From: a virus
Virus record (IMG/VR): IMGVR_UViG_3300003663_000013
Direction: 5' to 3' (one strand)
DNA length: 64,000 nucleotides
The translations under genes were made by a program, and so were the position numbers. Position 1 is the stretch's first letter. Each line of letters opens with the position of its first letter. The notes under the pieces are model-generated. The model was not told the origin of the DNA and ran no database searches. It saw only the letters and a list, made by a program, of their open reading frames with translations. This document shows, piece by piece, positions 12,901-51,936 of the stretch.

Positions 12901-12986
12901 ACGATGACGGTCCAATGAGTGCGTGGTTAGGAATAAAATGTATAAGTGCAAGTAAAGATAAAGATGTTAATTTTGTAATGATGTAA
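9963..12986 (+). CDS. terL: terminase large subunit, interrupted by an intein
   Basis: Walker A-like ASRGLGKS, Walker B DWIIIDDYGD and a C-terminal nuclease-type region. The exteins join as INIVG|TPFQESD. Confidence 0.8.
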   Translation: MIEKLDKGGSPHTIEQLNWVYEQFENVIDMLDDKSLKEISSGSQFDVDSLVQIIEEETLNIFTGIPEPINASKFYNLTNVTANIHETLKVLNYNYFKLTMMPGFYISPLSIEWGNIIQIYDRTCVLASRGLGKSFEYSLALPIWKMYGYRRPSEFNPVSLDIARRREGLLVTNKYKLGQKLLGKIATEIKENDALHERLKPERKDEGTLGRERIETKNGCELNLRSADSTARGLHPDWIIIDDYGDNNWIYSQEQRDKAIETFYGDIMKTIERGGTINIVGCVSMDSTIITRDGLRKIGNLCPVENYKEKGLYEYEIEVLGKNGWNKTSHYWCNGLTKTKKITLKGGYELECSLIHPLWKMNENGCPDWCESKNLKVGDWIAVKDGYDFDGEKIDLTEFYSNYNVTYKHKNIKIHNSVDRDLAYLLGLYVADGSFEDTGRITIAKSIEGIRKFLLEYGFVKGQDIKLRYNSKYLIDLMQYLGFTKATAISKHIPEKIFKADKETLKWFLQGMFDGDGGCYVDKDSSIQINYSSISKQLIYDLHNILMAFGIFSSIKERPPGISERVRGKHNLYRINIAGYDSRLFLEKIGFRFSGKSDKVTEDLLSSIRSKNSSYRRIPHQKDLIKKVRKEKPRRKSGEVSTLPPFHSQEVVSPNISRESLKIVSDWFVENGAKGEFTDQLVKNGNENLVYLPITKIEDSENYTVDFHIPNKHNFITNGIVSHNTPFQESDLYAYIRENDKTFKYFEYPAVMPDGTIVAPHRWNMEELEKEYETNGPLIFSREILVVPISDGSTIFPWDILEKSFIGMQDYRLVTNRDSFPIKFKFVSVGCDFAISGNIENADATVFSVWGVDDYENYWLLHIWRKQGASHNEQIGKLKEIERNFRPDEIVAESNGFQKVMLSIGREHGIKNITDFNTTGWNKKDLYEGLPSLAILFHQGRMRMPRGDVQSKEMTDWLCSEFNSITIKPDSGKLESAGQHDDGPMSAWLGIKCISASKDKDVNFVMM
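10806..12134 (+). mobile_element. intein with LAGLIDADG homing-endonuclease domain (443 aa) in TerL
   Basis: Starts with Cys (CVSMDS) and ends VSHN, followed by Thr +1. Contains LAGLIDADG blocks LAYLLGLYVADGSF and LKWFLQGMFDGDGG. Confidence 0.85.
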
Positions 12987-17181: not shown

Positions 17182-17251
17182 TATGATAATAAGAAAATTG
17201 TTTAAATTTGAAGGCTCTCATGTTGTGAGAGATTGTACATAAAACAAAGAA

Positions 17252-17701
17252 ATGTATAGAATATTAGAAAAGATACAGGAATTATTAGAAGAGTCTTTGT
17301 TGTTATATAAAAACAGCAATAGACCATACAATTACATACCTGGTTATATAAAAAGAAGACTTAGTGATTATGATGTAGAGAGTGTATTAAAATATTATAA
17401 AACCGCTAACTTTAATGAATGTATATATAGATTTGTTAATAAAATGAAAGATCCGCAGATTTGTGCCAATAAGAATTGTGTTAAATTTACAAAATATTAT
17501 GGAGCTGGTATAGGTTATTCTAAATATTGTAGTAAGAAATGTCGATCTACCTGTGTTGATCTTAAAGAGATGACATCGTCTAGGTTTAAAGGTAGAGAAA
17601 GTCCTTTGAAAGGTAAGACTTATAAAGAGATATATGGAGATAAGATCCCTAAATGTGGTTTTAAAAAGGCAGAGCTAATCCCAATTACAATCCGATATTG
17701 A
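17252..17701 (+). CDS. homing-endonuclease-like protein, N-terminal part (Cys cluster + NUMOD3-like repeat)
   Basis: CANKNC...CSKKC cluster followed by GKTYKEIYG-type repeats. The frame ends 35 nt after a T4A5 run (17659-17667). Confidence 0.45.
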   Translation: MYRILEKIQELLEESLLLYKNSNRPYNYIPGYIKRRLSDYDVESVLKYYKTANFNECIYRFVNKMKDPQICANKNCVKFTKYYGAGIGYSKYCSKKCRSTCVDLKEMTSSRFKGRESPLKGKTYKEIYGDKIPKCGFKKAELIPITIRY

Positions 17702-18246
17702 AGAAGAAAGCTACTGATTCGTTAAGGAAATATTATGCTGAACATCCGGAAGCTAAGGGATATCGTAGACAACTTATTTATGAAAGAGAACGGTTTTTTA
17801 TAAATAGTGGACGATTAAAATTTCCTAATTCTAAAGGCGAAATGTTTAGATCTTCTCTAGAAGCTCTTTTTTCTGAGTATTTGATAAATAGAGGTGTTAA
17901 ATATCAGTATGAAAAAAGATATAAATTGATCGACGGTAGAGTGAAAGTGGTGGATTTTACTTTATATAATCATATTTTAGTAGAGGTTAGTGGTTATGCT
18001 TTTGATAATTGGAGGAAAAGCTTCTCGTCCAAGATGAGGGTTGTGAGACAAACATTAAATAATCCCATTTTAATATTAACTTATCCTGAAAATTTGGAAT
18101 TTATACACGAAGACTTTGTAATAGGTTTTGATGTATATTTTGAGAATATATATGATGAAGAGAGAATATTTAGAATAATAAATTATATAAACGAAGTTAA
18201 ATTTTTAAATGACAAATATTATGAATGGCAAATGGCAAATAGCTAA
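17698..18246 (+). CDS. homing-endonuclease-like protein, C-terminal part (possible PD-(D/E)XK-like nuclease fold)
   Basis: The -1 frame is open from 17665. Read that way it gives KGRANPNYNPILKKKATDSLRKYYAEHPE, a NUMOD3-like continuation of the upstream ORF. Confidence 0.45.
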   Translation: MKKKATDSLRKYYAEHPEAKGYRRQLIYERERFFINSGRLKFPNSKGEMFRSSLEALFSEYLINRGVKYQYEKRYKLIDGRVKVVDFTLYNHILVEVSGYAFDNWRKSFSSKMRVVRQTLNNPILILTYPENLEFIHEDFVIGFDVYFENIYDEERIFRIINYINEVKFLNDKYYEWQMANS

Positions 18247-18775
18247 AGAGTTTGGCTGCGATTATGGACATAGAGTATGGACACAGCAATTAAATGAAGA
18301 GTATTCTTGTGATAGTAAATGCGTATGTAGGCATTTACACGGTCACCGAGCAACTATTATTGTTTATTTGGAGAGTGATAAACTTGATGAACAGGGGATG
18401 GTTACAGATTTTAAACACTTAAATTGGTTTAAAGAATTTATAGATAGAGTTATAGATCATAAATTTATTATTGATATAAATGACCCTTTACTTAAGTCTG
18501 GGATTTTTTTGAACAATGTTCATAGAGTAAAAGAAGATATTGATGGTGAAGCTTATTATGAAGTAGTTGCTCCTCATGAATATGAGGATATTGACAATAG
18601 TGTCTATGAGTTGTATGAAGGAATGGTTTTTGTAGATTTTGTTCCTACATCTGAAAATCTTTCTAAATGGTTTTTTGAGATCATTCAGAGAAAAATGAAT
18701 AAAATTGGAGTTAAAGTACAGAGAGTACAATTTTACGAGACTCCTAAATCACAAAGTAATTTCATTAAAAATTAA
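18209..18775 (+). CDS. queD: 6-carboxy-5,6,7,8-tetrahydropterin synthase (QueD)
   Basis: KEFGCDYGHRV and CRHLHGH motifs of the PTPS/QueD family. The start may be the ATG at 18221. Confidence 0.8.
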   Translation: MTNIMNGKWQIAKEFGCDYGHRVWTQQLNEEYSCDSKCVCRHLHGHRATIIVYLESDKLDEQGMVTDFKHLNWFKEFIDRVIDHKFIIDINDPLLKSGIFLNNVHRVKEDIDGEAYYEVVAPHEYEDIDNSVYELYEGMVFVDFVPTSENLSKWFFEIIQRKMNKIGVKVQRVQFYETPKSQSNFIKN

Positions 18776-18782
18776 ATAAGAT

Positions 18783-19541
18783 ATGGTAAAAACAATTATT
18801 GCAGGGAATCCAGATTTTAAAAAAGAGATTCCTGAAGGAGAATTATATTTAGATGTTGCAGAATTCTTTTGTGACACAATTCAAGGTGAAAATTTTGTAG
18901 GTTGGCCATCCGCATTCTTACGAGTACAGCACTGTACCCAGTCGTGTATTTGGTGCGATAGTAAAGAAGTTTGGAGATTTGGTAATCCTTATACTTTTAA
19001 TGAACTATTTGAACTCATAGAAGAGGCAGATTTGATTCGTAAATTTAAAGAAGGACAACACTTAGTACTAACAGGTGGATCTCCGGTGAGACAGCAAGAT
19101 GGATTAATAGCATTTATTAATGCTTTCATTGATAAATATGGATTTAAACCTTATATTGAGATTGAAAATGAATCAACTTTAATGCCAAAAGAAGATTTAA
19201 TTGATCTTGTAGATCTATGGAATAACTCACCTAAATTAGAGAGTTCATATAATCCTAAGAATTTTAGATATAATCCGAAAGTTTTAAGTAAATTAGCTTC
19301 TCTGGATAATTCTTGGTTTAAGTTTGTCGTGTATGATGAAGCGGGTTGGAAAGAGATTCAAGAAGATTTCTTAGATACAGGTTTAATTCGAAAAGATCAA
19401 ACAGTATTGATGCCATTAGGTGCTACAAGAGATGAACTTAATCAAAATCGTGAAAAAGTGCTTGAAATAGCAACAAGAGAAAATGTGAGATACTCTACAC
19501 GTGAACACGTGGTTGTTTGGGATCGTATGACTGGCGTATAA
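18783..19541 (+). CDS. queE: 7-carboxy-7-deazaguanine synthase (QueE, radical SAM)
   Basis: TIQGEN...FLRVQHCTQSCIWCDS carries the CxxxCxxC cluster, in a QueE-like N-terminal context. Confidence 0.8.
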   Translation: MVKTIIAGNPDFKKEIPEGELYLDVAEFFCDTIQGENFVGWPSAFLRVQHCTQSCIWCDSKEVWRFGNPYTFNELFELIEEADLIRKFKEGQHLVLTGGSPVRQQDGLIAFINAFIDKYGFKPYIEIENESTLMPKEDLIDLVDLWNNSPKLESSYNPKNFRYNPKVLSKLASLDNSWFKFVVYDEAGWKEIQEDFLDTGLIRKDQTVLMPLGATRDELNQNREKVLEIATRENVRYSTREHVVVWDRMTGV

Positions 19542-19560
19542 TTAAAAAACAAAATAATAG

Positions 19561-20208
19561 ATGTGTGAAATTATATCAGGACAGAACAAGATTCATTCTA
19601 ATGATGAATTAGATGAGAAAAGAAAAGATGTCGAAGAAAAGTATGGAGAATTTTTAACATCTCTAGGATATGATTGGAAGAATGATTCCAATATGAAAGA
19701 TACTCCTAGAAGAGTTGCTAAGATGTATTTAGATGAAGTAACTAAAGGAACCTACACTCCTCGACCTAAGATAACTACTTTTAAGAATCAGACGCATTAC
19801 TCCGGAATGGTTTTTGAAGGAGACATTATAGTGAAATCTTTATGTAGCCATCACATGCAACCTTTTGTAGGTAAAGCACACATAGCTTATATTCCTGGAG
19901 AAAGTGGTAATGTTATTGGATTATCAAAATTAAATAGATTAGTTGATTGGTTTTCAAGAAGACCTCAATTACAGGAGCAGCTTACACAACAAATACATGA
20001 TGAGTTATGTAAAATAATGCCAGACAACCAAGGCGTAGCAGTGATGGTTGAAGCACAACATATGTGTGTTTATTTAAGAGGTATTGAACATAATAGTGTC
20101 ATGAAAACTGCTCAAATGTCAAAAGTTTTTTTTGATAATGAAAAAAGATCCAGAGATGAATTTTATCGTATGATTGCTGATTTAAAAACCAATAAGAATA
20201 TAATATGA
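19561..20208 (+). CDS. folE: GTP cyclohydrolase I (FolE)
   Basis: TPRRVAKMY, CSHHMQPF and QLQEQLT motifs. Confidence 0.85.
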   Translation: MCEIISGQNKIHSNDELDEKRKDVEEKYGEFLTSLGYDWKNDSNMKDTPRRVAKMYLDEVTKGTYTPRPKITTFKNQTHYSGMVFEGDIIVKSLCSHHMQPFVGKAHIAYIPGESGNVIGLSKLNRLVDWFSRRPQLQEQLTQQIHDELCKIMPDNQGVAVMVEAQHMCVYLRGIEHNSVMKTAQMSKVFFDNEKRSRDEFYRMIADLKTNKNII

Positions 20209-20651
20209 TAAGGGTAAAATTTATTAAAACACATGAAGATGCTATTTTGCCATCTAAAAACTACCACGGTAATTCTACTGGTGACGCATGCTATGATTTA
20301 TTTGCTGTGGAAACCGTTAAAATAGCCGCTGGTGAAAATAAAGTAGTGCCTGTAGGTATGAAAGTGGCTTTTATAGAGCCAGGCTATTGGTTAAGAATAG
20401 AGGCTAGAAGTGGAAATGGTTTCAATAAAAATTTAGAACCACACCCTGGCATAATTGATAATGGTTATAGGGGAGATTTAGATATTAAAATATTTAATTT
20501 AGGGAAAGAAGACCAGGTTATAGAAAAAGGTAAAGGAGTTGCGCAATTTTCTATAATCAAAATGATTTCAGCTGATATAAGTTGGTCTCAGGAGATATCA
20601 GATTCTGAAAGAGGCGAAAAAGGTTTGGGGAGTTCAGATAAAAATGAATGA
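20205..20651 (+). CDS. dUTPase-fold nucleotide pyrophosphatase embedded in the deazaguanine cluster
   Basis: All five trimeric dUTPase motifs are present: GDACYDL, ARSG, GIIDNGYRGD, GVAQ and RGEKGLGSS. Motif 5 is diverged. Confidence 0.7.
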   Translation: MIRVKFIKTHEDAILPSKNYHGNSTGDACYDLFAVETVKIAAGENKVVPVGMKVAFIEPGYWLRIEARSGNGFNKNLEPHPGIIDNGYRGDLDIKIFNLGKEDQVIEKGKGVAQFSIIKMISADISWSQEISDSERGEKGLGSSDKNE

Positions 20652-20904
20652 AAAAAGTGACATAAGCAAATCGTTTTTCTTTAAAACTAAAGGTGGGTCT
20701 CAAGGTTATATAGATATTGAAGTCCACCCTCATAAAAATAATCTTCCTATTCATAAAGAAAGGGCAAATAAAAAGCAAGAAGTAAAAGGTAAAAAGGCAA
20801 GAATTGTAGAGCTTTTAGAAAAAAGGTGTAGTTCAAGTGAAATTAAAAAAATCACAGGTTTTAGTTCAGCATATATTAATAAAGTTAAAAATAATAAAGT
20901 ATGA
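20644..20904 (+). CDS. small HTH DNA-binding protein
   Basis: The C-terminal segment RCSSSEIKKITGFSSAYINKVKNN looks like an HTH. Confidence 0.4.
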   Translation: MNEKSDISKSFFFKTKGGSQGYIDIEVHPHKNNLPIHKERANKKQEVKGKKARIVELLEKRCSSSEIKKITGFSSAYINKVKNNKV

Positions 20905-21680
20905 AAAGAAGTCACGAAGTACCAATTTGTTTATTAGAGGAAAGTCGTAAATTTAATGATTTTGATTATGCATTAGTTCATCTATTCTCTGATAATTTTG
21001 AATATTATAATTTCTTTGTAGAATCCTTGAAAATGGGGAGAACGGTTATTTTGGATAATAGTGTCTTTGAATTAGGAGAAGCCTATGAAGAGCAGGAATA
21101 CGCAAGGTGGATAGAGAAATTAGAACCCACTTATTATATAATACCAGATCGTTTTGAGGATAAAAAATTTACAGTGAGTTCTGTAAATAAATGGACAGAG
21201 AGAACTTTCTGCGCTAAACCAATAGGCGTAGTACAGGGAGAAACAATAGATGAATTGTTGGAATGTTATGATGATATAGCAGATAAAGTGGATATTATTG
21301 CAATTAGTTTTGCACAGCCAGCTTTTGAGAAATTATTTCCTTCAATACATAAAGATTGGGCAAGGTCATTAGGTAGAGTATTTTTTGTCAATTCTTTAAT
21401 AAACAAAGGTTTATTGAGAGATTGGAAAAAACATCACTTATTAGGATGCTCTCTTCCACAAGAATTAATATGGTATAAAAACCCTATTTATAATTTTTTA
21501 ACCTCAATTGACACTAGTTCTCCAGTTTTACATACTATATTTGATAAGAAATATGAAAGTTGGGGTTTAAAAGAAAAAATTAAAACAAAGCTTGCTGATT
21601 ATATAAATATTGACAGTTCTTTGATTAATAGTAATTTATTATATTATAATCTTGAGATTTTTAAAAATTTAATGCCATGA
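20901..21680 (+). CDS. dpdA: DpdA-like (TGT-fold) 7-deazaguanine DNA transglycosylase candidate
   Basis: Motif order resembles TGT: ILDNSVFE (DSGGFQ-like), IIPDRF, GVVQGE (GIVQGG-like), HHLLGCS (LMGVG-like) and SIDTSSP. It sits between folE and queC. Confidence 0.6.
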   Translation: MKRSHEVPICLLEESRKFNDFDYALVHLFSDNFEYYNFFVESLKMGRTVILDNSVFELGEAYEEQEYARWIEKLEPTYYIIPDRFEDKKFTVSSVNKWTERTFCAKPIGVVQGETIDELLECYDDIADKVDIIAISFAQPAFEKLFPSIHKDWARSLGRVFFVNSLINKGLLRDWKKHHLLGCSLPQELIWYKNPIYNFLTSIDTSSPVLHTIFDKKYESWGLKEKIKTKLADYINIDSSLINSNLLYYNLEIFKNLMP

Positions 21681-22228
21681 AGATAGCTATTTCAGGGGCA
21701 CAAAATTCTGGTAAAACAACTTTAATCAAGTTAATTAAGGAAAAAGGTAAGACAAAAGGTTACATTTTTTTTGATGAGGTTGTCAGAACTTTAAAGAAGG
21801 AAAAAAATATATCTATAAATAAAGTGGCAGATTTTGATTCTCAAGTCTTGATTTTAGAAAGGCATTTAGAGAATTTAAAAGAAGAAAATTTTATAACAGA
21901 CAGGTGTTTATTAGACGCGTTTGTTTATTCTCATTATTTATACGATAAAGCGTTATACAGTAAGGAGCAAATGGATGTTTTTGAAAAGTTATTCTTGAAA
22001 GGTATTGATAAATATGATTTAATTTTTTTGCAAGATATCGAAGGTATTTCTATTGAAGATGATGGTTTTAGGAGCTTGGATATTAAATTTAGAGAAGACA
22101 TTCATTCCTTATTTTTAAATATATTAAGTATATTTAAAATAAATTATGTAATTTTAGAAGGAACCATAAACCAAAGATATAAAATATTTAATCGGTCTAT
22201 CAATGAGAAAATCAGAAAATATAAGTAA
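21677..22228 (+). CDS. P-loop NTPase / nucleoside(-tide) kinase-like protein
   Basis: N-terminal Walker A ISGAQNSGKTT in a small kinase-like protein. Confidence 0.5.
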   Translation: MKIAISGAQNSGKTTLIKLIKEKGKTKGYIFFDEVVRTLKKEKNISINKVADFDSQVLILERHLENLKEENFITDRCLLDAFVYSHYLYDKALYSKEQMDVFEKLFLKGIDKYDLIFLQDIEGISIEDDGFRSLDIKFREDIHSLFLNILSIFKINYVILEGTINQRYKIFNRSINEKIRKYK

Positions 22229-22730
22229 GTATACAATTGAATGGCAAGTTTTAAGGGTTTCTTTAAAAAATAAGTATAATGATGATTTAGTGTATAAATT
22301 ATCAATAGTAAAAAATTATTTTAATAAAACGAAATCTTATGACAGGTGGGAGAGAGTTTATAATTGGTTGGAAGGTTTAGAAAGAGGGTTTAAGACTCAC
22401 AGTAAATTTCATGAAATATCAATAATTAAGAGTGAGCTAAATTATTATAATGAACACAAGCCAGATAAAAATTATATTTCAAATGAAGATAATTCTTTTA
22501 AAGATTATGATTTGGTTATTTTACAAAAACTATGGAAAGATTTATTTAAGACAAACAAAAATTGGTTAGACAATGGTTATTTTCATAAAGAGTGTAATGA
22601 TTTTATAGATAAGCTATATGAATATTTAAAAAATAAGGTTATATTTGATGATAAGTATTCTTATCAGTGCTTACAAGCATTGAGGAGTAAATCTCTCTTC
22701 ATTCACAATAAACATAAATTCTTTTTTTAA
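22203..22730 (+). CDS. hypothetical protein inside the deazaguanine cluster
   Basis: 175-aa ORF with no recognisable motif. Confidence 0.5.
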   Translation: MRKSENISKYTIEWQVLRVSLKNKYNDDLVYKLSIVKNYFNKTKSYDRWERVYNWLEGLERGFKTHSKFHEISIIKSELNYYNEHKPDKNYISNEDNSFKDYDLVILQKLWKDLFKTNKNWLDNGYFHKECNDFIDKLYEYLKNKVIFDDKYSYQCLQALRSKSLFIHNKHKFFF

Positions 22731-22744
22731 TTAAAATTTATAGT

Positions 22745-24370
22745 ATGAAAAAAGCAGTAGTAGTATTTTCAGGAGGTCAGGACTCTACAACCTGTCTAGG
22801 ATGGGCTTTAAAAAATTTTGATGAAGTTGAAGCGATAACATTTAATTATGGACAAAAGCATTCAATAGAATTAGAGCAAGCTAAATCTATTTGTGAGAAA
22901 CATGGTGTAAATCAGACTTTAATAGATATTTCGTTTTTAAATACATTGGTTGATTCTGCTTTAACAAGCAACGGAGATGTTAATAAGACACATCCGAGAT
23001 TAAAATATCTCCCTGCAAGTTTTGTTCCTAATAGGAATGCATTGTTTTTAACTTTAGCTCATGCTTATGCACAAAAAATTGGAGCAGAGACTTTAGTGAC
23101 GGGCGTGTGTGAAACTGATTATTGTGTGACGGGAGATACGTTGATAGATTGTCCAAGAGATTTATCTATTTATCCTCAAGGTATCCCTATAAAGGAATTG
23201 GTAGGGAAAGAGTTTTTAACATGGTCATGGGATGTACAGAAGCAAAAAACAGTTTTAAAAAGAGCGTTTAATGTAAGAAAAACTTATGATGAAACAGATA
23301 TATATGAAGTTAAATATACTTGGGGAGTGGGTAAGAGTAAGAGGTTTGGCTCAGTAAAAGCTACATCGGATCATAGATTTCTACTTACATCTGGTAAATA
23401 TGTTAAATTGAAAGATTTAAAGAACGGAGATTCATTACAAACCTTTCATTCGACCTATGATAAAAAATATAGATTAATAACATCTGAACCCACCAAAGTG
23501 CAATATGAACATAAGTTAATCGTTTCTTTATTAAACAATATAAATATAGCATCAGATTGGGTTTCTCATCACAAAGATCATAATCCATATAATAATAATG
23601 TTGATAATTTACAGAAAATGGATTTTTCTATACATATGTCTCATCACACTAAACAAAGCTGGGAAAGTGGATTGCTTAAAGTAAACAATACTTTTATCAA
23701 TAACAATCCCATGAATTATAAAAAATATAGAGATAAAGTCTCTCAAAAAAAGAAAGAGTGGTGGGATAATTTATTACAAGAAGATAGACAGAGAATGTCT
23801 AATAAATCAAGTGTTAGTATGAAAAAAAGAATGGAATCAAATGATTATATAAATCCATCTAACCTACCAGGTGTTAAATTTAAGCAGAGATATGCTAGAT
23901 ACAAGTATTATAATAATAGAGATGGAATGGAAATGGTTAAGAAAGAAGCTGAAATAGCTGGATTTAGTGTAAATCATAAAGTAGTTTCTATTGAATATAT
24001 TGGTCGAGATTCAGCATACGATATGGAGGTAGAAGATACACATAATTTCGTAGCTAACGATATTTTTATTCATAACAGCGGATACCCTGATTGTAGAAAT
24101 ATATTTATTGAGTCATTACAAGAATCTTTACATTTAGCTTCAGATGTTTTAATAAAAATTGAAACACCTTTAATGTACTTAGATAAGGCAGATACATTTA
24201 AGATGGCTGATGATATAGGTATTTTAAATGACGTTATTAATTTATCTCACACTTGTTATAATGGAGATCACAAGACTAAGAATGAATGGGGATATGGATG
24301 TGGTGAGTGTCCTGCTTGTCAAGTTAGAAAAAGGGGCTATGAAGAGTATTTAAATAGATATAAAAAATAA
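22745..24370 (+). CDS. queC: 7-cyano-7-deazaguanine synthase (QueC), interrupted by an intein
   Basis: PP-loop VVFSGGQDST. The exteins join as GVCETDY|SGYPDCR, the canonical QueC motif. C-terminal Zn motif CGECPAC. Confidence 0.85.
   Translation: MKKAVVVFSGGQDSTTCLGWALKNFDEVEAITFNYGQKHSIELEQAKSICEKHGVNQTLIDISFLNTLVDSALTSNGDVNKTHPRLKYLPASFVPNRNALFLTLAHAYAQKIGAETLVTGVCETDYCVTGDTLIDCPRDLSIYPQGIPIKELVGKEFLTWSWDVQKQKTVLKRAFNVRKTYDETDIYEVKYTWGVGKSKRFGSVKATSDHRFLLTSGKYVKLKDLKNGDSLQTFHSTYDKKYRLITSEPTKVQYEHKLIVSLLNNINIASDWVSHHKDHNPYNNNVDNLQKMDFSIHMSHHTKQSWESGLLKVNNTFINNNPMNYKKYRDKVSQKKKEWWDNLLQEDRQRMSNKSSVSMKKRMESNDYINPSNLPGVKFKQRYARYKYYNNRDGMEMVKKEAEIAGFSVNHKVVSIEYIGRDSAYDMEVEDTHNFVANDIFIHNSGYPDCRNIFIESLQESLHLASDVLIKIETPLMYLDKADTFKMADDIGILNDVINLSHTCYNGDHKTKNEWGYGCGECPACQVRKRGYEEYLNRYKK
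23123..24076 (+). mobile_element. intein (318 aa) with HNH-type endonuclease insert in QueC
   Basis: Starts with Cys (CVTGDTLID) and ends FIHN, followed by Ser +1. The internal segment SHHKDHNPYNNNVDNLQKMDFSIHMSHH looks HNH-like. No LAGLIDADG blocks were seen. Confidence 0.8.
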
Positions 24371-24374
24371 TAAA

Positions 24375-24671
24375 ATGGAACAAAAATATAAAAAATTACC
24401 AACCATTTTTAAGAAGAATGGTTATTATTATAGAGTCTTAGATAGAACTGAAACTACTGCAATTGTAGAGCAATGTGTTGCAGAACGAGCCGATCCTTTC
24501 TGTTATGAGGTTTTTTATATTAAAAAGCAAGATGAGATGGATGTAAATATTGGTGGCGTTGATGTGCATTATGAAGCTAAAGAAAATCCCCCATCTAACG
24601 AAGATTTTGGGAAAACTGCTTGGAGTATTAGAGATAGAGATAAGGCCTTAAAACTATTTAAGCAATTATGA
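24375..24671 (+). CDS. hypothetical protein
   Basis: 98-aa ORF between queC and dnaE. Confidence 0.5.
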   Translation: MEQKYKKLPTIFKKNGYYYRVLDRTETTAIVEQCVAERADPFCYEVFYIKKQDEMDVNIGGVDVHYEAKENPPSNEDFGKTAWSIRDRDKALKLFKQL

Positions 24672-27600
24672 TAAAAAATTGGATTGAAGATAATTTACTA
24701 GATGTTCAGTGGATTGACGACAATGTCTTTGAAATAATTAATATTGGCAGATTTTTAGTTGTTTCAGAAAAAGACATTGTCTTTGATCAAGAAATGGATC
24801 TAATATTAGATCATGGAGAAGAGTCTATTGATATAGATTTTTATTGTTTTAAATTTGGAGAACAATATTATTACACGGATAGTATCAAGATCAAAAAATT
24901 AAAGCCATTAAAGTATTTAGGTAAATATAGAGATGAATTACAAATATCGAATCCTCCTTTTTTAGGAATACATGGAGGATACGAACTCTTAAATGGAAGT
25001 CGAATTTACATAGATTGGATTCAAAAAGCTAAATTTCTTGACATAAATACATTAGGGATTGTTGAAAAGAATACATTGGCAGGCGTATTAAAATTTCAAC
25101 TTGCTTGTCAAGACAACAACATCACTCCTATTATTGGAGAACAAGTAGTAGTTAAAGACGGTGACGACTTATTGCAATTTAAATGTTATGTGAAAAACGA
25201 GATTGGTTGGAAGAATCTTTTAACTATAAACAAGATTATAAACATCGTTAACCATGGATTTATATTAAGAGGTGATTTTTTGAATCTTGTTGAAGGGATA
25301 AGTGTAGTTGTTGATTGTAAATACACCCCTTATAATAAAATAAGAACATATCACTCTACCATTAGTGACTTATATTATCAAATAGATAGTGTTGAATTTA
25401 AAAACAATGAAAAAGATCAAGAATATTTATTGAATTTACAGAAGTTTGTTAAACAGAAAGATATAAAACCTGTTTTAATATCAGATGCTTATTATTTGGA
25501 TAAAAGCGATATTGATGCTAAAAGTATTTTAAATAATATAAGTAACGTAAGAGATTTCAAGAGCGAGGATCAGTATTTTAAAACTATAGAAGATAATTAC
25601 TCATCTCTTTCATCACTATTCTCTGATGAAAATGAATTTATTGAAGTATTTGGTGATGCTTTAAACAATGTTATTGAATTATCTAAAGAATGTGTTTTCC
25701 AGATTCAAACTGATATTAAATATCTACCAGAATATTTAATGACTGATGAAGAAGTAGAAAAGTATGGTGATAAAGAAACTATGTTTTGGGCATTAGTAGA
25801 GGAGGGTTTAAAAAACAAAATAAAAGACGATGATTTAGACAAATACTTAGATAGAATTAATGAGGAGTATGATACAATATCTTTAGTGCAATCCGAATTT
25901 GGGAATGGAGTTGATTATTTTCTCATTTCACAAGACATTGTAAAATATTGTAATGAAAATAATATTTTAGTTGGATTAGGTAGAGGTTCTGCAGCAGGTA
26001 GCTTTTTAGCTTATTTATTAGACATCACTAAAATTAATCCCTTTGATTATGACCTACTCTTTTCTAGGTTTTTAAATAAAGGACGTGTGGAGAAAGGGAG
26101 TCTTCCTGATGTAGATTTAGATTTTGAAGGATTGAAGAGAAGTAAAGTTAAGCATTATCTTGAAGAAAAATACGGACAAGATAATGTGTGTTCTGTAGGA
26201 ACATATACGACTTTACAATTAAGAGCAGCTTTTAAGGATATAGCAAGACAGAGAGGAATAGATCATAAGACAGCTAATTTTATAAGTGAAGGTATTGATA
26301 CAGATAGAGGAGATTGGGTAGATGTTTTTAAATTAGCTCAAGAAAAGCAGCCTTTAAAGAATTTTATTCTAAGACATCCTGATATTATAGAAGATATTCA
26401 ATTAATATTAAAGCAACCTAGATCAGCATCTGTACATGCCTGTGCAATGATTATAACGCCTCAAAATAAAACTATATATGAGTATATTCCTGTTAGAATA
26501 GGAGAAAAAGATGGTGAAGAAATAATTGTTAGCGAATGGGAAGGTGGTGAATTAGAAAAAGCAGGATTTTTAAAAGAAGACATTTTAGGGATAAGACAAT
26601 TAGATAAATACTCTTTTATATTGGATTTGATTAAGAAGCAAACGGGAGAGAATGTTAGCATTTATGATACACCACTGGATGTCGACGGAGTTTATGAATT
26701 ATTTCAACAAGGTAACAATGGAGATGTTTTTCACTTTGGAAGTCACGGTTTGACTCAATATTGTAAAGAATTAAAACCAGAAACTATACATGATCTAATT
26801 GCAGGTATTGCTTTATATAGACCTGGTTCGATGGAGATTAATTCCCACAATGAATACATCTTTAGGAAAGAAGGATCTTCTCCGATATCATATAGATGGG
26901 GAACGGAAGAGATCCTTAAAGATACTTATGGCTTAATTGTTTACCAGGAACAAGTAATGAAGATAGTTAGTCAATTAGCTGATTTTAGTTTAATAGATGC
27001 TGATGAGATTAGGAGAGCTATGGGTAAGAAAATTAAAGATGTTATTGATAAATATGAAGATCAATTTATTAGTAAGGTTATAGAGAAAGGTTGTCCTGAA
27101 GATGAAGCTAAGACGATTTGGCATGAGTTAGAAGTACAGTCTAAATATACTTTTAATAGAAGTCACGCAGCATCTTATGCGATTACTGGTTATATTGGCC
27201 AGTGGCTAAAATACCATTATCCTTTACAATATTGGACTGCTGCTTTTCAATTTGATGATCCAAACCCAAAGAAAAGTAACTTAGGTAGATATATAAGTGA
27301 AATAAGAAGAACAGATAATTTCATTAAAATAATGCCTCCTGAAATAAATGAATCTGGAGAAACCTTCACTTCTAATTATGAAAAGATGGAATTATACTGG
27401 TCTATTACAAGAGTAAAACAATTAGGTGAAAAGGCTCTTCAAAGCATAATGGAAGAAAGAAACAAGAACGGTGAGTTCTTTAGTTTAGAAGATTTTTTAA
27501 ATAGAACAGAGAAAAGAGTTGTAAATAAAGCAGTAGTAATTAATCTTATCCTAAGTGGTTCTTTTGATGCAATAGAAAACATAAAAATAGAAAGAGACCG

Positions 27601-28072
27601 TAAGATTTTAATCAATAAATATTATGAATTCTCAGGAACTAAGAGAGATAAAGAAGATGAATTCTTATTAGACCATCCTAATTACTGGTGGCAGATAAAA
27701 CAAAAAGAAATATGTGGATTTGGCGATATAGATTACAAGACGGTAATAACTGAAAACACAAAATTATTAGGAGATTACTGTGAAGGTTATCAAATAAAGG
27801 ATTTATCAGAGAATAAGAAGATCATAGTAGCAGGAATGATTAAAGATTTCACTATTAAAACAACTAAGAAAGACGATGAATACTGTAAATTAATATTAGA
27901 TTGTAACAATGAAGATGTTGATGTTATGGTATGGAATGAATCTTATAGAAACATACCAGAAGAAGAATTTCAAACAGGGAGAATATTTATAATGTTTGGT
28001 TCTATTGCTGAGTATAGAGGGAATAAATCAGTACATAGTTATGAAGAAAGTGAGATTTATTTTTTAAATTAA
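24668..28072 (+). CDS. dnaE: DNA polymerase III alpha-type (DnaE) replicative polymerase
   Basis: N-terminal PHP-like region, GLGRGSAAGSFLAYLLDITKINP, PDVDLDF, FNRSHAASYA and a C-terminal OB-like region. Confidence 0.85.
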   Translation: MIKNWIEDNLLDVQWIDDNVFEIINIGRFLVVSEKDIVFDQEMDLILDHGEESIDIDFYCFKFGEQYYYTDSIKIKKLKPLKYLGKYRDELQISNPPFLGIHGGYELLNGSRIYIDWIQKAKFLDINTLGIVEKNTLAGVLKFQLACQDNNITPIIGEQVVVKDGDDLLQFKCYVKNEIGWKNLLTINKIINIVNHGFILRGDFLNLVEGISVVVDCKYTPYNKIRTYHSTISDLYYQIDSVEFKNNEKDQEYLLNLQKFVKQKDIKPVLISDAYYLDKSDIDAKSILNNISNVRDFKSEDQYFKTIEDNYSSLSSLFSDENEFIEVFGDALNNVIELSKECVFQIQTDIKYLPEYLMTDEEVEKYGDKETMFWALVEEGLKNKIKDDDLDKYLDRINEEYDTISLVQSEFGNGVDYFLISQDIVKYCNENNILVGLGRGSAAGSFLAYLLDITKINPFDYDLLFSRFLNKGRVEKGSLPDVDLDFEGLKRSKVKHYLEEKYGQDNVCSVGTYTTLQLRAAFKDIARQRGIDHKTANFISEGIDTDRGDWVDVFKLAQEKQPLKNFILRHPDIIEDIQLILKQPRSASVHACAMIITPQNKTIYEYIPVRIGEKDGEEIIVSEWEGGELEKAGFLKEDILGIRQLDKYSFILDLIKKQTGENVSIYDTPLDVDGVYELFQQGNNGDVFHFGSHGLTQYCKELKPETIHDLIAGIALYRPGSMEINSHNEYIFRKEGSSPISYRWGTEEILKDTYGLIVYQEQVMKIVSQLADFSLIDADEIRRAMGKKIKDVIDKYEDQFISKVIEKGCPEDEAKTIWHELEVQSKYTFNRSHAASYAITGYIGQWLKYHYPLQYWTAAFQFDDPNPKKSNLGRYISEIRRTDNFIKIMPPEINESGETFTSNYEKMELYWSITRVKQLGEKALQSIMEERNKNGEFFSLEDFLNRTEKRVVNKAVVINLILSGSFDAIENIKIERDRKILINKYYEFSGTKRDKEDEFLLDHPNYWWQIKQKEICGFGDIDYKTVITENTKLLGDYCEGYQIKDLSENKKIIVAGMIKDFTIKTTKKDDEYCKLILDCNNEDVDVMVWNESYRNIPEEEFQTGRIFIMFGSIAEYRGNKSVHSYEESEIYFLN

Positions 28073-50579: not shown

Positions 50580-50722
50580 CTATAAATAAGACAATAAAAA
50601 TATAAACATTATAATAATAAAGTGGTTTAAAAAGAAAAAATAGAGATTGTTGTTTGTGTTTTCAAGGTTGTAGATTTTTTAAATCGCTATAGTCTGGGAA
50701 CATTCTAAATTTGAGATTTAAT

Positions 50723-51468: not shown

Positions 51469-51936
51469 ATGTTAAGAATAAACATAAAAAAAGAACATGA
51501 GAATTATATAGAACCTAAAAAGGCACACGAGACAGATGCTTGTTTTGATGTATATATTGCAGAAATAGAAAGAATAGCTAAAGGTTTGGTTGTTGTTAAT
51601 TTAGGATTTAGTACAGAAATACCAGAAGGATGGAAAGGGATAGTAGTTCCCAGAAGTAGTTTAACAAAAACAAATTGGGTAATTCAAAACTCTCCTGCTC
51701 AAATAGATAGTGATTATAGAGGAGTTTGGATGTTAAAAATGAGATGTATTCCTAGTTATATTAACAGTCAAATGAAACCTCCCACTTTATATTATGAAAG
51801 TTTCCCTTATCAAGTAGGGGAAAGAATTGGACAAATATATTTTGAAAAAGTAAATGATGTAGTATTATTGTCAGTAGAAGAAACTACTGAAACAGTGCGT
51901 GGAACAGGTGGCTTTGGAAGTACAGGAAATAAATAG
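51469..51936 (+). CDS. dut: dUTPase
   Basis: Canonical motifs TDACFDV, PRSS, IDSDYRG, RIGQ and RGTGGFGSTG. Confidence 0.8.
   Translation: MLRINIKKEHENYIEPKKAHETDACFDVYIAEIERIAKGLVVVNLGFSTEIPEGWKGIVVPRSSLTKTNWVIQNSPAQIDSDYRGVWMLKMRCIPSYINSQMKPPTLYYESFPYQVGERIGQIYFEKVNDVVLLSVEETTETVRGTGGFGSTGNK

What the first reader, a model, noticed from the sequence alone, without database searches (positions are those of the whole stretch)
17183..24370. 7-deazaguanine DNA-modification cluster with several unassigned members
folE, queD, queE and queC (the complete preQ0 pathway from GTP) are clustered with a TGT-fold DpdA-like protein. This is the known signature of phages that replace G by 7-deazaguanine derivatives. 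No QueF, Gat-QueC/ArcS-like or other tailoring enzyme is visible in the window, so dPreQ0 is the simplest prediction.

Interleaved genes have no assigned role in the published pathway:
- a dUTPase-fold enzyme (20205..20651)
- a small HTH protein (20644..20904)
- a P-loop kinase-like protein (21677..22228)
- a 175-aa unknown (22203..22730)

These are candidates for nucleotide-pool control or additional tailoring.
Basis: partly seen in the sequence, partly recalled or inferred. Interest (0 to 1): 0.65.

Follow-up and report, generated by a model that had tools for sequence, protein, structure and literature searches.

The report
Phage DpdA3 7-deazaguanine DNA cluster
An uncultured phage carries the full pathway for the guanine analogue preQ0, a minimal "DpdA3" base-swapping enzyme, a small kinase and a dUTPase-like enzyme; comparison with about 95 related loci suggests, without proving it, that these phages build the modified nucleotide before DNA replication.

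Summary
Window 18209-24370 encodes QueD, QueE, FolE, a dUTPase-fold enzyme, an 86-aa ORFan, a TGT-fold protein, an AAA_28 P-loop kinase, a 175-aa unknown and QueC, packed on one strand.

- The TGT-fold protein belongs to the DpdA3 subfamily (about 42% identical to those of Campylobacter phage CP220 and Flavobacterium phage immuto_2-6A). Published DpdA3 phages replace all G.
- QueC carries a 318-aa intein (23123-24076). An intein-less allele exists in another metagenome.
- The kinase lies within about 2 kb of DpdA3 in 25 of 28 DpdA3 lineages.
- A nucleotide pyrophosphohydrolase of varying fold (dUTPase, MazG, PRA-PH, HD, DCD) is often adjacent. One genome fuses the dUTPase to DpdA3.
- The 175-aa protein is a conserved, basic, all-alpha family with no fold match. 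It occurs only in DpdA3 clusters that have QueC and lack QueF.
- The "HTH" ORF is an orphan.
- No QueF or other tailoring gene is in the window.

Best reading: a new QueF-less subtype of DpdA3 system, predicted to give fully dPreQ0-substituted DNA. I think it most likely works at the nucleotide level, which is inferred and contradicts the published post-replicative model.

The parts
18209..18775 (+). QueD (6-carboxytetrahydropterin synthase)
   Evidence: Pfam PTPS 6.1e-28. PHROG QueD-like 1.6e-35. The CxxxHGH motif is present, so this is QueD and not the DpdL decarboxylase paralogue described in PMC10516641.
18783..19541 (+). QueE (7-carboxy-7-deazaguanine synthase, radical SAM)
   Evidence: PHROG QueE-like 2e-39. 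Pfam Fer4_12 and Radical_SAM hits are weak. NCBIfam QueE models hit but below their cut-offs. The CX3CX2C motif is visible in the translation.
19561..20208 (+). FolE (GTP cyclohydrolase I)
   Evidence: Pfam 8.9e-53. NCBIfam NF006826 176.6 bits against a cut-off of 162.
20205..20651 (+). dUTPase-fold dNTP pyrophosphatase, 'type A' (the DpdA3-linked subtype)
   Evidence: Pfam dUTPase 2.2e-18. PDB dUTPases match at 1e-16. Motifs I-III and V are present, but the motif IV Arg is replaced by Gly. An orthologue is fused to DpdA3 in P0045/L084. Substrate specificity was not determined.
20644..20904 (+).
   Evidence: No Pfam, PHROG or NCBIfam hit. No homologue in any ORF of the related loci.
20901..21680 (+). 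DpdA3-subfamily 7-deazaguanine transglycosylase (minimal TGT barrel)
   Evidence: About 42% identical to the DpdA3 of CP220 and immuto_2-6A, and 25% to that of phiST. AF2 pLDDT 96.7. The three best Foldseek matches are 1iq8, 7ui4 and 6rkq. D52, D83 and D204 are invariant. D204 aligns with the DpdA nucleophile motif. There is no Zn motif.
21677..22228 (+). AAA_28 small P-loop kinase, conserved partner of DpdA3
   Evidence: Pfam AAA_28 6e-19. PHROG 'thymidylate kinase' 1e-26. The nearest NCBIfam model is the NadR ribosylnicotinamide-kinase domain. It is 31-32% identical to the genes beside DpdA3 in immuto_2-6A and CP220. It is present in 25 of 28 DpdA3 lineages. Invariant residues are the Walker A motif plus R37, R76, D80, D129 and R132.
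22203..22730 (+). 175-aa basic all-alpha protein of unknown fold family ('unk175'), marker of QueF-less DpdA3 clusters
   Evidence: 28 close homologues and 200 representatives at 50% identity, none with a Pfam domain. AF2 pLDDT 93.5, seven helices. No PDB or BFVD match. Always found with DpdA3; QueC is also present in 8 of 9 loci; never with QueF or DpdN. Median family pI 9.0.
22745..24370 (+). QueC (7-cyano-7-deazaguanine synthase) interrupted by an intein
   Evidence: Pfam QueC 2.6e-70 in two stretches, plus Intein_splicing 8e-16. The spliced 223-aa product scores 259.7 bits on NCBIfam TIGR00364 against a cut-off of 150.3.
23123..24076 (+). Class-1 intein (318 aa) with an HNH-like segment, inserted in the QueC motif CETDY|SGYPDCR
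   Evidence: Boundaries are Cys1 ... His-Asn followed by Ser+1. After removal the exteins are colinear with an uninterrupted QueC (70% identity, no gap at the junction). In run X3, a contig about 99% identical to the flanks skips 23121-24079 with 5 nt in between, a net 954 nt.
17252..18246 (+).
   Evidence: 17698-18246 hits PHROG endonuclease and Holliday-junction-resolvase families at 2e-5 to 4e-5 and Pfam Phage_endo_I weakly. There are no homologues in related loci. Run X3 has little or no contig depth over 17261-18304 (three of four depth bins are 0), while the flanks are covered.
24668..28072 (+). DNA polymerase III alpha (DnaE-type) directly downstream; context, the enzyme that would have to use a modified dNTP
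   Evidence: Pfam DNA_pol3_alpha 6e-63, finger domain 3.5e-46. The same QueC-polymerase neighbourhood occurs in L084 and L086.
51469..51936 (+). Second, canonical-looking dUTPase ('type B') elsewhere in the genome
   Evidence: Pfam dUTPase 3.7e-12. PDB dUTPases match at 2e-16. It keeps the PRSS, ERIGQ and RGTGGFGSTG motifs.

Best explanation
Shown:
- The locus is a DpdA3-type 7-deazaguanine DNA-modification module of an uncultured tailed phage, probably infecting Bacteroidota.
- FolE, QueD, QueE and QueC (QueC after protein splicing of its intein) make the base preQ0 from GTP.
- A minimal TGT-fold enzyme of the DpdA3 subfamily is the base-exchange catalyst.
- The AAA_28 kinase is a conserved partner of DpdA3.
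- The dUTPase-fold pyrophosphatase and the 175-aa all-alpha protein are recurrent partners.

Inferred, how it most likely works:
1. The modification is made before replication, at the level of free deoxynucleotides. This follows the logic of T4 (dCTPase, dCMP hydroxymethylase, dNMP kinase) and S-2L (MazZ, DatZ, PurZ).
2. The dUTPase-fold enzyme hydrolyses a dNTP to dNMP. That lowers the competing pool and/or supplies the deoxyribose-5-phosphate donor.
3. DpdA3 swaps the base of that dNMP (or deoxynucleoside) for preQ0.
4. The AAA_28 kinase phosphorylates the product towards dPreQ0-TP.
5. The adjacent phage DnaE-type polymerase incorporates it, giving DNA in which essentially all G is dPreQ0.

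The role of the 175-aa protein is unknown. It is specific to the QueF-less subtype.

Confidence by part: identity of the module about 0.9. Complete replacement about 0.6. Nucleotide-level mechanism about 0.5, which is the figure given below.
For: Identity:
- Pfam, PHROG and NCBIfam assignments.
- DpdA3 homology to CP220, immuto_2-6A and phiST.
- TGT fold.

Complete replacement:
- All three DpdA3 phages analysed by LC-MS lack detectable dG (PMC10516641, Table 1 and Discussion).

Nucleotide-level route:
1. An AAA_28 kinase lies 0.6-2.1 kb from DpdA3 in 25 of 28 DpdA3 lineages at 90% identity, and in 18 of 21 at 70%. phiST has an AAA_18 P-loop protein next to its DpdA3. Three of four sampled kinase relatives sit in DpdA3 clusters.
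2. The kinase family keeps Walker A plus four conserved Arg residues (three invariant, one nearly so) and a DR motif. Its nearest curated model is the NadR nucleoside-kinase domain. This is the pattern of a small-molecule kinase.
3. A nucleotide pyrophosphohydrolase sits beside DpdA3 in four independent lineages, each time with a different fold: trimeric dUTPase here, PRA-PH in immuto, HD fused to a second kinase in CP220, MazG in phiST, and DCD in L086/L088. It is found within 7 kb in 12 of 28 lineages.
4. P0045 is a single 408-aa dUTPase::DpdA3 polypeptide.
5. The genome already has a second, more canonical dUTPase.
6. DpdA3 is a bare 259-aa barrel. None of 47 family members has the CxCxxC Zn motif, and the median pI is 5.5. 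[quoted passage not shown]
7. Some clusters add a phosphoribosyltransferase.
8. Cui et al. could not get DpdA3 to modify DNA in E. coli, and they cite detection of free ADG nucleoside in CP220-infected cells.
9. From established knowledge: every well-studied complete base replacement in phage DNA is made through the dNTP pool, and 7-deaza-dGTP analogues are good polymerase substrates.
Against: - No TGT-superfamily enzyme is known to act on a mononucleotide. All characterised members act on tRNA or DNA.
- The only paper that defines DpdA3 proposes post-replicative insertion (PMC10516641).
- Substrate specificities of the dUTPase-fold enzyme and of the kinase are not determined. By sequence the former looks like an ordinary dUTPase apart from the missing motif IV Arg.
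- NTP pyrophosphohydrolase adjacency was detected in only 12 of 28 lineages. The closest IMG/VR relative of the type A dUTPase has no DpdA3 within 5 kb.
- A distant kinase relative sits in a bacterial chromosome without DpdA3.
- Bacterial DpdA needs an ATPase partner (DpdB) to modify DNA (PMC10164549), so a P-loop partner is also compatible with a DNA-level mechanism.
- The phage is uncultured and no chemistry exists for it.
- Only 64 kb of a genome of about 100 kb was inspected.
Confidence: 0.5

Rival explanations
1. Post-replicative model, as published. DpdA3 is a highly processive DNA transglycosylase that replaces G by preQ0 in newly replicated phage DNA. The AAA_28 protein is an ATP-dependent helper (a functional analogue of DpdB) or a salvage kinase. 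The dUTPase-fold, MazG and HD enzymes are ordinary house-cleaning or pool-control enzymes of the replication module.
For: - DpdA3 has the TGT fold and the conserved Asp residues of DNA- and tRNA-acting transglycosylases.
- Cui et al. 2023 propose this model for all DpdA subfamilies.
- Bacterial DpdA needs the ATPase DpdB to insert preQ0 into DNA.
- The cluster sits in the replication module beside the helicase, primase-like and polymerase genes, where nucleotide-metabolism genes commonly gather.
- The type A dUTPase looks nearly canonical.
Against: - No known post-replicative system reaches 100% replacement without sequence specificity. Other DpdA subfamilies reach 0.1-30%.
[quoted passage not shown] The DpdA3 family is also acidic.
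- The partner looks like a small-molecule kinase and not like the ParB-like DpdB.
- The dUTPase::DpdA3 fusion and the replacement of the pyrophosphatase by unrelated folds are hard to explain as coincidence.
- Heterologous DpdA3 expression gave no DNA modification.
Confidence: 0.35
2. The final base is not preQ0. The 175-aa family, or a gene outside the window, converts preQ0 or dPreQ0 into another derivative, for example the amide ADG or an undescribed one. The first reader's dPreQ0 prediction would then be wrong, whichever insertion mechanism applies.
For: - The 175-aa family is strongly conserved, with 21 invariant columns that include E50, R51, N54, E57 and D113; H128, E130 and H171 are nearly invariant.
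- In most loci it lies directly upstream of QueC.
- It occurs only where QueF and DpdN are absent, that is, it occupies the tailoring slot of the cluster.
- Each of the three DpdA3 phages analysed so far turned out to carry an unexpected base.
Against: - No catalytic fold could be recognised. There is no PDB or BFVD match and no family hit.
- The protein is basic and all-alpha, which fits a binding or accessory role equally well.
- The spliced QueC passes the curated QueC equivalog threshold, so preQ0 is the expected pathway product.
Confidence: 0.25
3. The interleaved genes are unrelated passengers. The dUTPase, kinase and 175-aa genes sit between the que genes by chance of phage genome mosaicism and play no part in the modification.
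For: - Phage replication modules are mosaics.
- The 86-aa ORF and the two ORFs at 17252-18246 are indeed non-conserved insertions.
- dUTPases and small kinases are common in phages.
Against: - The kinase is next to DpdA3 in 25 of 28 lineages, despite extensive rearrangement of the surrounding que genes.
- The 175-aa family co-occurs with DpdA3 in all nine loci where it was seen.
- The dUTPase is physically fused to DpdA3 in one genome.
Confidence: 0.08
4. The cluster serves tRNA and not DNA. The phage boosts queuosine precursor supply for host tRNA modification.
For: Some phages carry que genes without a recognisable DpdA, and this role was discussed for them in PMC6884629.
Against: - A DpdA3 is present. 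It is 42% identical to those of phages whose DNA was shown chemically to be fully modified.
- No tRNA genes are in the window.
Confidence: 0.02

Closest known systems
[quoted passage not shown] 2023, PMC10516641)
   Same: - DpdA3 about 41% identical.
- AAA_28 kinase 31% identical, close to DpdA3.
- FolE, QueD and QueE upstream; QueC lies outside the stretch fetched.
- An NTP pyrophosphohydrolase lies just upstream of DpdA3, and a replicative polymerase just downstream.
   Different: - immuto has QueF and the formyltransferase DpdN, a PRA-PH-type pyrophosphohydrolase in place of a dUTPase, a phosphoribosyltransferase and a family A polymerase.
- It has no member of the 175-aa family.
- The window has none of QueF, DpdN or PRTase and uses a DnaE-type polymerase.
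Campylobacter phage CP220 (Firehammervirus; dADG, 100% of G)
   Same: DpdA3 is 42% identical. It is immediately followed by an AAA_28 kinase (32% identical) and preceded by a nucleotide hydrolase.
   Different: - The hydrolase is an HD domain fused to a second (AAA_33) kinase.
- The que genes are dispersed.
- According to PMC10516641 the pathway stops at CDG, and the base is the amide ADG.
- There is no 175-aa family member.
Cellulophaga phage phiST (dDG, 100% of G)
   Same: - Same overall order: QueD, QueE, FolE, pyrophosphohydrolase, then P-loop protein and DpdA3, followed by a DnaE-type polymerase that is 39% identical to the window's.
- The only DNA-level similarity in the phage database is a 70-nt stretch of folE.
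   Different: - Its DpdA3 is only 25% identical.
- It has no QueC.
- It has the QueD paralogue DpdL (proposed CDG decarboxylase), a MazG in place of a dUTPase, and an AAA_18 P-loop protein in place of AAA_28.
Bacterial Dpd system (DpdA/DpdB/DpdC; Gedara et al. 2023, PMC10164549) and phage DpdA1/DpdA2
   Same: TGT TIM-barrel fold with a conserved Asp nucleophile motif (HLLG...SxD). preQ0 is the inserted base.
   Different: - DpdA is 413 aa, with the 128-residue insertion Ins8 and a CxCx2Cx22H zinc site, and it binds DNA. DpdA3 is 259 aa, has neither feature and is acidic.
- DpdA works with the ATPase DpdB.
- DpdA modifies under 0.1% of G at a specific motif; DpdA1 and DpdA2 reach 0.1-30%.
Pre-replicative base-replacement modules: T4 gp56 dCTPase / gp42 dCMP hydroxymethylase / gp1 dNMP kinase; cyanophage S-2L MazZ / DatZ / PurZ (own knowledge of established systems)
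   Same: Same three-part gene logic: a dNTP pyrophosphohydrolase, an enzyme that makes the modified dNMP, and a dedicated kinase, all placed in the replication module, with complete replacement of one base.
   Different: - The central enzyme here has a TGT fold (base exchange) and is not a thymidylate-synthase or adenylosuccinate-synthetase homologue.
- None of its activities has been measured.
- This is a resemblance in how it may work. It is not a membership claim.

Membership tests
DpdA3 subfamily of DpdA/TGT transglycosylases | Sequence homology to the proteins that define DpdA3 (phiST CGPG_00065, CP220 gp056, immuto_2-6A gp206) | tested here: met
   - tblastn: about 42% identity over 90% of the query to CP220 and immuto, E 1e-44 to 4e-45.
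- Local tblastn: 1.4e-56 and 4.5e-54; phiST 25%, 9e-8.
- PHROG 19058: 4.5e-55.
DpdA3 subfamily of DpdA/TGT transglycosylases | TGT-type (beta/alpha)8 barrel | tested here: met
   AF2 model pLDDT 96.7, pTM 0.92. The three best Foldseek PDB matches are 1iq8 (6.6e-7), 7ui4 DpdA (6.1e-6) and 6rkq TGT (3.5e-5).
DpdA3 subfamily of DpdA/TGT transglycosylases | Three active-site aspartates (general acid/base, base recognition, nucleophile) | tested here: inconclusive
   - D52, D83 and D204 are invariant in 47-50 family members and lie at the C-terminal ends of barrel strands.
- Only D204 is directly aligned to the DpdA nucleophile motif, and that alignment is marginal (HMMER E 0.48).
- The other two are matched by position only.
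DpdA3 subfamily of DpdA/TGT transglycosylases | Complete replacement of G in virion DNA | not testable with these tools
   The phage is uncultured and known only from metagenomes. Testing this needs LC-MS/MS.
Canonical DpdA / TGT (DNA- or tRNA-acting) | Structural Zn site CxCx2Cx22H and the large Ins8 insertion after the nucleophile Asp (conserved in the DpdA family, PMC10164549) | tested here: not met
   - Only 55 residues follow D204, and none is Cys.
- None of 47 DpdA3 family members has CxCxxC.
- So it is not filed as a canonical DpdA.
preQ0 biosynthesis pathway (FolE, QueD, QueE, QueC) | All four enzymes present with their signature motifs | tested here: met
   - FolE is above the curated cut-off.
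- QueD has PTPS plus CxxxHGH.
- QueE has the PHROG hit and the radical-SAM Cys motif, but is below the NCBIfam cut-offs.
- Spliced QueC scores 259.7 bits against the 150.3 cut-off of the TIGR00364 equivalog.
Class 1 intein (in QueC) | Hint splicing domain, N-terminal Cys, C-terminal His-Asn followed by a Ser/Thr/Cys +1 residue, in-frame insertion in a conserved host motif, and existence of an empty allele | tested here: met
   - Pfam Intein_splicing 8e-16.
- C127...HN444|S445, 954 nt.
- The exteins rejoin to CETDY-SGYPDCR, colinear with an uninterrupted QueC.
- An intein-less contig exists in run X3.
- Splicing activity itself was not tested.
Trimeric dUTPase (EC 3.6.1.23) | Five conserved motifs and dUTP specificity | tested here: inconclusive
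   - Motifs I, II (ARSG in place of PRSG), III and V are present.
- The motif IV Arg/Lys is replaced by Gly or Ala in all DpdA3-linked type A members.
- NCBIfam dut scores 96.1 bits, below the cut-off of 102.55.
- Specificity cannot be read from the sequence.
Nucleoside/nucleotide kinase (AAA_28, NadR-RNK-like) | P-loop, DR motif, Arg-containing LID, and a small-molecule phosphoacceptor | tested here: inconclusive
   - Pfam AAA_28 69.3 bits against a cut-off of 27.
- Walker A, R37, R76 (DR motif), D129-G-x-R132 and R167 are conserved.
- The nearest curated model is the NadR kinase domain, far below its cut-off.
- The substrate is not testable here.
Pre-replicative base-replacement module (T4 / S-2L type) | The modifying enzyme acts on a free nucleotide, and the modified dNTP is used by the polymerase | not testable with these tools
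   Only the gene-content signature is met: pyrophosphohydrolase, modifying enzyme and kinase together, plus the fusion protein. The biochemistry is required.

The most novel reading that the evidence does not exclude
DpdA3 is not a DNA transglycosylase. It would be the first TGT-fold enzyme to exchange the base of a free deoxynucleotide or deoxynucleoside. Together with a dedicated AAA_28 kinase and a dNTP pyrophosphohydrolase, it would form a previously unrecognised pre-replicative pathway to 7-deaza-dGTP analogues. That would explain how these phages replace 100% of their guanine. In the QueF-less subtype found here, an orphan-fold 175-aa protein would add a further, still unknown step.
Probability: 0.45. 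Interest if true: 0.85.

Novelty: new variant of a known kind. Interest (0 to 1): 0.66.

Why it matters
Phage 7-deazaguanine DNA is a known anti-restriction strategy. How DpdA3 phages reach complete replacement of G is still open. The only paper defining DpdA3 proposes post-replicative insertion but could not reconstitute it.

This window, compared with about 95 related loci, shows three things:
- DpdA3 is a stripped-down TGT barrel that almost always travels with a small-molecule-type kinase.
- It often sits beside a nucleotide pyrophosphohydrolase, which is replaced by unrelated folds in different lineages.
- In one genome the dUTPase and DpdA3 are a single polypeptide.

That is the classical signature of dNTP-pool-level base replacement. 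It turns the open question into three simple enzyme assays.

If the model is confirmed, it would add a new reaction type to the TGT superfamily. It would also give an enzymatic route to 7-substituted 7-deaza-dNTPs, which are useful reagents.

The analysis also defines a new QueF-less cluster subtype with an orphan-fold protein family. It shows that genes of this pathway attract inteins and homing endonucleases.

Tried and rejected
- **Megablast of the region against 50,697 phage records.** Only a 70-nt folE match to phiST-like phages was found, so there is no close cultured relative.
- **DpdA3 profile against PDB sequences.** Only a marginal hit to DpdA 7ui4 (E 0.48). Structure prediction was needed to settle the fold.
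- **The 175-aa protein.**
  - No Pfam, PHROG or PADLOC-type clue.
  - A TIGR02328 hit (4.9e-5) appears in only 1 of 28 family members.
  - The idea that it is a distant T4 endonuclease V / Pyr_excise relative came from a Pyr_excise gene in the same position in L095. hhalign rejects it (probability 0.1%).
  - Foldseek against PDB and BFVD gave nothing below E 0.5.
  - tblastn against cultured phages found no match.
  - A profile search of 1.8 billion representatives found only standalone proteins and no informative fusions.
- **Reading dUTPase base specificity from motifs.** I first thought a uracil-contacting Asn was lost. Alignment with the human and FIV enzymes shows that position is not conserved, so that claim was dropped. 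Only the motif IV Arg loss remains, and its meaning is unknown.
- **Reciprocal locus searches from the kinase and the dUTPase.** Single proteins reached almost nothing, and the kinase alignment was too divergent for pattern scanning. I replaced these with a protein search plus four context look-ups.
- **Walking beyond the window to check the rest of the genome for QueF.** One look-up found no record. The other returned only short contigs with tail-fibre-like genes. The remaining roughly 36 kb of the ~100-kb genome was not inspected.
- **Promoter and terminator scan.** Counts equal chance, so it is uninformative.
- **Small ORFs between the pyrophosphatase and DpdA3 in three lineages.** They are not homologous to each other.

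Full report
**1. What is there**

Between 17183 and 24370 every ORF of substance is on the + strand.

| Coordinates | Assignment | Evidence |
|---|---|---|
| 18209-18775 | QueD | PTPS 6e-28; the CxxxHGH motif distinguishes QueD from the DpdL paralogue |
| 18783-19541 | QueE | PHROG QueE-like 2e-39 |
| 19561-20208 | FolE | Pfam 9e-53 |
| 20205-20651 | dUTPase-fold protein | Pfam 2e-18 |
| 21677-22228 | AAA_28 P-loop protein | Pfam 6e-19; PHROG 'thymidylate kinase' |
| 22745-24370 | QueC | Pfam 3e-70 |

From QueD to the DnaE-type DNA polymerase gene (24668-28072), neighbouring genes overlap by 4-38 nt or are separated by at most 19 nt. This looks like one translationally coupled unit. A consensus promoter and terminator scan added nothing.

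**2. The transglycosylase is a DpdA3**

The 259-aa product of 20901-21680 has no Pfam or NCBIfam hit. It matches PHROG 19058, a family of unknown function (4.5e-55).

- tblastn against cultured phages returns only 18 records. They are the Campylobacter Firehammervirus group (CP220 and relatives) and the Flavobacterium immuto phages, at about 42% identity over 90% of the protein.
- In immuto_2-6A the gene is annotated 'DNA guanine transglycosylase'. A weaker match (25%, 9e-8) is to phiST CGPG_00065.
- These three proteins define the DpdA3 subfamily of Cui et al. 2023 (PMC10516641).
- An AlphaFold2 model built on 47 homologues is very confident (pLDDT 96.7). Its three best PDB matches are archaeosine TGT, the DNA preQ0 insertase DpdA and bacterial TGT.
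- D52, D83 and D204 are invariant. D204 aligns with the nucleophile motif of DpdA.

The protein is only the bare barrel.

- In Salmonella DpdA, a 128-residue insertion (Ins8) pinned by a CxCx2Cx22H zinc site follows the nucleophile, is conserved across the DpdA family and forms part of the DNA-binding surface (PMC10164549).
- DpdA3 has 55 residues after D204 and no cysteine among them.
- None of 47 family members has a CxCxxC motif, and the family is acidic, with a median pI of 5.5.

**3. QueC carries an intein**

QueC is 541 aa because a 318-aa intein (aa 127-444, nt 23123-24076) interrupts the motif CETDY|SGYPDCR. The intein starts with Cys, ends with His-Asn and is followed by Ser.

- With the intein removed, the 223-aa QueC is 70% identical to, and colinear with, an uninterrupted QueC from a related contig. 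It also passes the curated QueC equivalog threshold.
- In an aquaculture metagenome (run X3), a 3314-bp contig about 99% identical to the flanks jumps from 23120 to 24080 with 5 nt in between. That is a net loss of exactly 954 nt. An intein-free allele therefore exists in nature, and the boundaries are right.

The terminase (9963-12986) and the portal gene (61267 onwards) also contain LAGLIDADG inteins. In related loci QueE (L086), DpdA3 (L087) and the dUTPase (L022) are interrupted too.

**4. No tailoring enzyme in the window**

Pfam scans of all + strand ORFs of 60 aa or more found no QueF, formyltransferase (DpdN), DpdL, MazG, PRA-PH or phosphoribosyltransferase. HMMs built from related loci and searched in all six frames found none either. 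Only 64 kb of a contig of about 100 kb was available, and attempts to reach the rest failed.

**5. The interleaved genes, judged by comparison**

A pattern scan of IMG/VR found 498 viral contigs encoding a DpdA3 relative, and 80 were fetched. Together with three cultured phages and eleven further contigs, this gives about 95 loci.

(a) Kinase
- Iterative HMM searches find a homologue of 21677-22228 in 67 of 84 loci. After collapsing DpdA3 at 90% identity this is 25 of 28 lineages, and 18 of 21 at 70%. The gene always lies 0.6-2.1 kb from the DpdA3 start, although the que genes around it are shuffled.
- In CP220 and immuto_2-6A the homologues (32% and 31% identity) are annotated 'thymidylate kinase'. 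phiST has an AAA_18 P-loop protein directly beside its DpdA3.
- The family keeps Walker A, R37, a DR motif (R76), D80, D129-G-x-R132 and R167. Its nearest curated model is the nucleoside-kinase domain of NadR.
- In the reverse direction, three of four sampled relatives lie in DpdA3 clusters. One more distant relative lies in a bacterial chromosome.

(b) Pyrophosphohydrolase
- An NTP pyrophosphohydrolase sits beside DpdA3 in the four best-known lineages, with a different fold each time: trimeric dUTPase here, PRA-PH in immuto, HD fused to an AAA_33 kinase in CP220, and MazG in phiST. A DCD-type fold occupies the position in L086 and L088.
- With my limited HMM set, such an enzyme is detected within 7 kb in 12 of 28 lineages.
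- One metagenomic protein, P0045 (408 aa), is a direct fusion of a type A dUTPase to DpdA3. Its contig has the same QueC-then-DnaE layout as the window.
- The window also encodes a second, more canonical dUTPase at 51469-51936.
- The DpdA3-linked type A proteins keep motifs I-III and V but have lost the motif IV Arg. What this means for specificity cannot be decided from sequence.

(c) The 175-aa protein
- It belongs to a family of 28 close members and about 200 more distant ones. All are standalone and none has a known domain.
- The family is basic, with a median pI of 9.0.
- It is predicted with high confidence as seven helices and matches nothing in the PDB or BFVD.
- It was seen in nine loci: the window, L008, L022, L066, and L085 to L088. 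All nine have DpdA3. Eight also have QueC, usually immediately downstream, and none has QueF or DpdN.
- It therefore marks a distinct QueF-less subtype.

(d) The 86-aa 'HTH' ORF has no homologue anywhere in the set.

(e) 17252-18246 holds two non-conserved ORFs, one of them endonuclease-like. In run X3, three of the four depth bins over 17261-18304 are 0 while the flanks are covered. This is probably a mobile cassette.

**6. How it most likely works**

Shown: the phage can make preQ0 and has a DpdA3. Published chemistry on three DpdA3 phages found no residual dG. Complete replacement by a preQ0-derived base is therefore the expectation here, and dPreQ0 is the simplest case.

Inferred: the module looks like a pre-replicative pathway. 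A pyrophosphohydrolase, a base-modifying enzyme and a dedicated small-molecule kinase in the replication module are the signature of T4 hydroxymethyl-C synthesis and S-2L aminoadenine synthesis (established knowledge). Several observations fit this more easily than an exceptionally efficient DNA-level enzyme:
- the dUTPase::DpdA3 fusion;
- the loss of the DNA-binding insertion and zinc site;
- the acidic character of DpdA3;
- the occasional phosphoribosyltransferase;
- the failure to reconstitute DpdA3 on DNA in E. coli;
- the reported free ADG nucleoside in CP220-infected cells.

A modified-dGTP route was already suggested for Campylobacter phages before DpdA3 was recognised (PMC6884629). In the library available to me, no paper links DpdA3 to a kinase. 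The main text of Cui et al. does not contain the word 'kinase'.

Against this reading:
- No TGT-fold enzyme is known to use a mononucleotide.
- Bacterial DpdA needs an ATPase partner on DNA, so a P-loop partner is not decisive.
- The pyrophosphohydrolase link is not universal.
- No specificity has been measured.

I put the nucleotide-level model at about 0.5 and the published post-replicative model at about 0.35.

**7. Comparison with known systems, and novelty**

The locus belongs to a known kind, phage 7-deazaguanine DNA modification. Within that kind it belongs to the DpdA3 group by homology and fold. It fails the Zn/Ins8 criterion of canonical DpdA.

It differs from each of the three characterised DpdA3 systems:
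- It has QueC, unlike phiST and, according to Cui et al., CP220.
- It lacks QueF and DpdN, unlike immuto.
- It uses a trimeric dUTPase.
- It contains the orphan 175-aa family.

It is therefore a new variant of a known kind. Its main value is comparative: it exposes the conserved DpdA3-kinase pair, often joined by a pyrophosphohydrolase, and a fusion protein, which together make the mechanism of complete G replacement directly testable.

**8. Origin**

- The polymerase is closest to those of Chryseobacterium, Cellulophaga, Tenacibaculum and Bacteroides phages, at 33-39% identity.
- G+C content is about 29%.
- Near-identical sequence occurs in oil-field, crude-oil, aquaculture, sludge and marine metagenomes.
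- A Bacteroidota host is likely but not shown.

Noticed in passing
window 9963-12986: The terminase large subunit (1007 aa) is interrupted by an intein that carries a LAGLIDADG homing endonuclease (Pfam Intein_splicing 1.8e-12, LAGLIDADG_3 4e-16, Terminase_6C).
   Followed up: no
window 61267-64000 (runs off the end): The portal protein gene also contains a LAGLIDADG intein. That makes three inteins in 64 kb: terminase, QueC and portal.
   Followed up: no
window 51469-51936: A second dUTPase gene has fully canonical motifs, sits next to a DNA methylase and lies far from the deazaguanine cluster. The cluster-linked copy belongs to a different subtype that lacks the motif IV arginine.
   Followed up: partly
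window 8034-8579, 45341-46093, 50711-51463: Three DNA methyltransferase genes are present: one MT-A70 and two N6_N4_Mtase. The phage probably combines base methylation with 7-deazaguanine.
   Followed up: no
window 4179-4973: A PAPS-reductase-domain (PP-loop) protein of 264 aa (Pfam 1.7e-13). It is in the same ATP-pyrophosphatase superfamily as QueC. Its role is unknown.
   Followed up: no
L084 1150-2376 (protein P0045): A single 408-aa polypeptide fuses a type A dUTPase to DpdA3. It is followed by QueF, an unknown 309-aa protein, DpdN, an AAA_28 kinase, QueC and a DnaE polymerase.
   Followed up: yes
L092 6001-6942; L095 5580-6516; proteins P0298, P0305-P0318: About fifteen ~310-aa proteins, most carrying a GNAT acetyltransferase domain fused to the AAA_28 kinase, and a separate GNAT gene between QueF and the kinase, occur in DpdA3 clusters where DpdN normally sits. 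An N-acetyl-preQ1 DNA modification may exist.
   Followed up: partly
L022 5221-6975; L086 3036-4754; L087 10919-12241: In related phages the dUTPase (L022), QueE (L086, with a LAGLIDADG domain) and DpdA3 itself (L087, 440 aa with a NUMOD4 domain) appear interrupted by inteins or homing endonucleases. Genes of this pathway seem to be hot spots for selfish elements.
   Followed up: no
window 17261-18304 versus run X3: A closely related population (aquaculture metagenome) covers the flanks at about 40x, but three of the four depth bins over the two ORFs at 17252-18246 are 0. It also lacks the QueC intein. Both look like recent mobile insertions in the window's lineage.
   Followed up: partly
L093 6001-6525: A more distant AAA_28 relative (E 4e-33 to the kinase profile) lies in an 802-kb bacterial contig, next to an AP-endonuclease-2 family gene and a metallophosphatase, with no que genes nearby. 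It is a possible cellular ancestor of the phage kinase.
   Followed up: no
L001 6840-7235; L086 5370-5861; L092 2046-2459: A small phosphoribosyltransferase gene is embedded in several DpdA3 clusters between QueE and FolE. It could salvage the released guanine or ribosylate the deazapurine base.
   Followed up: no
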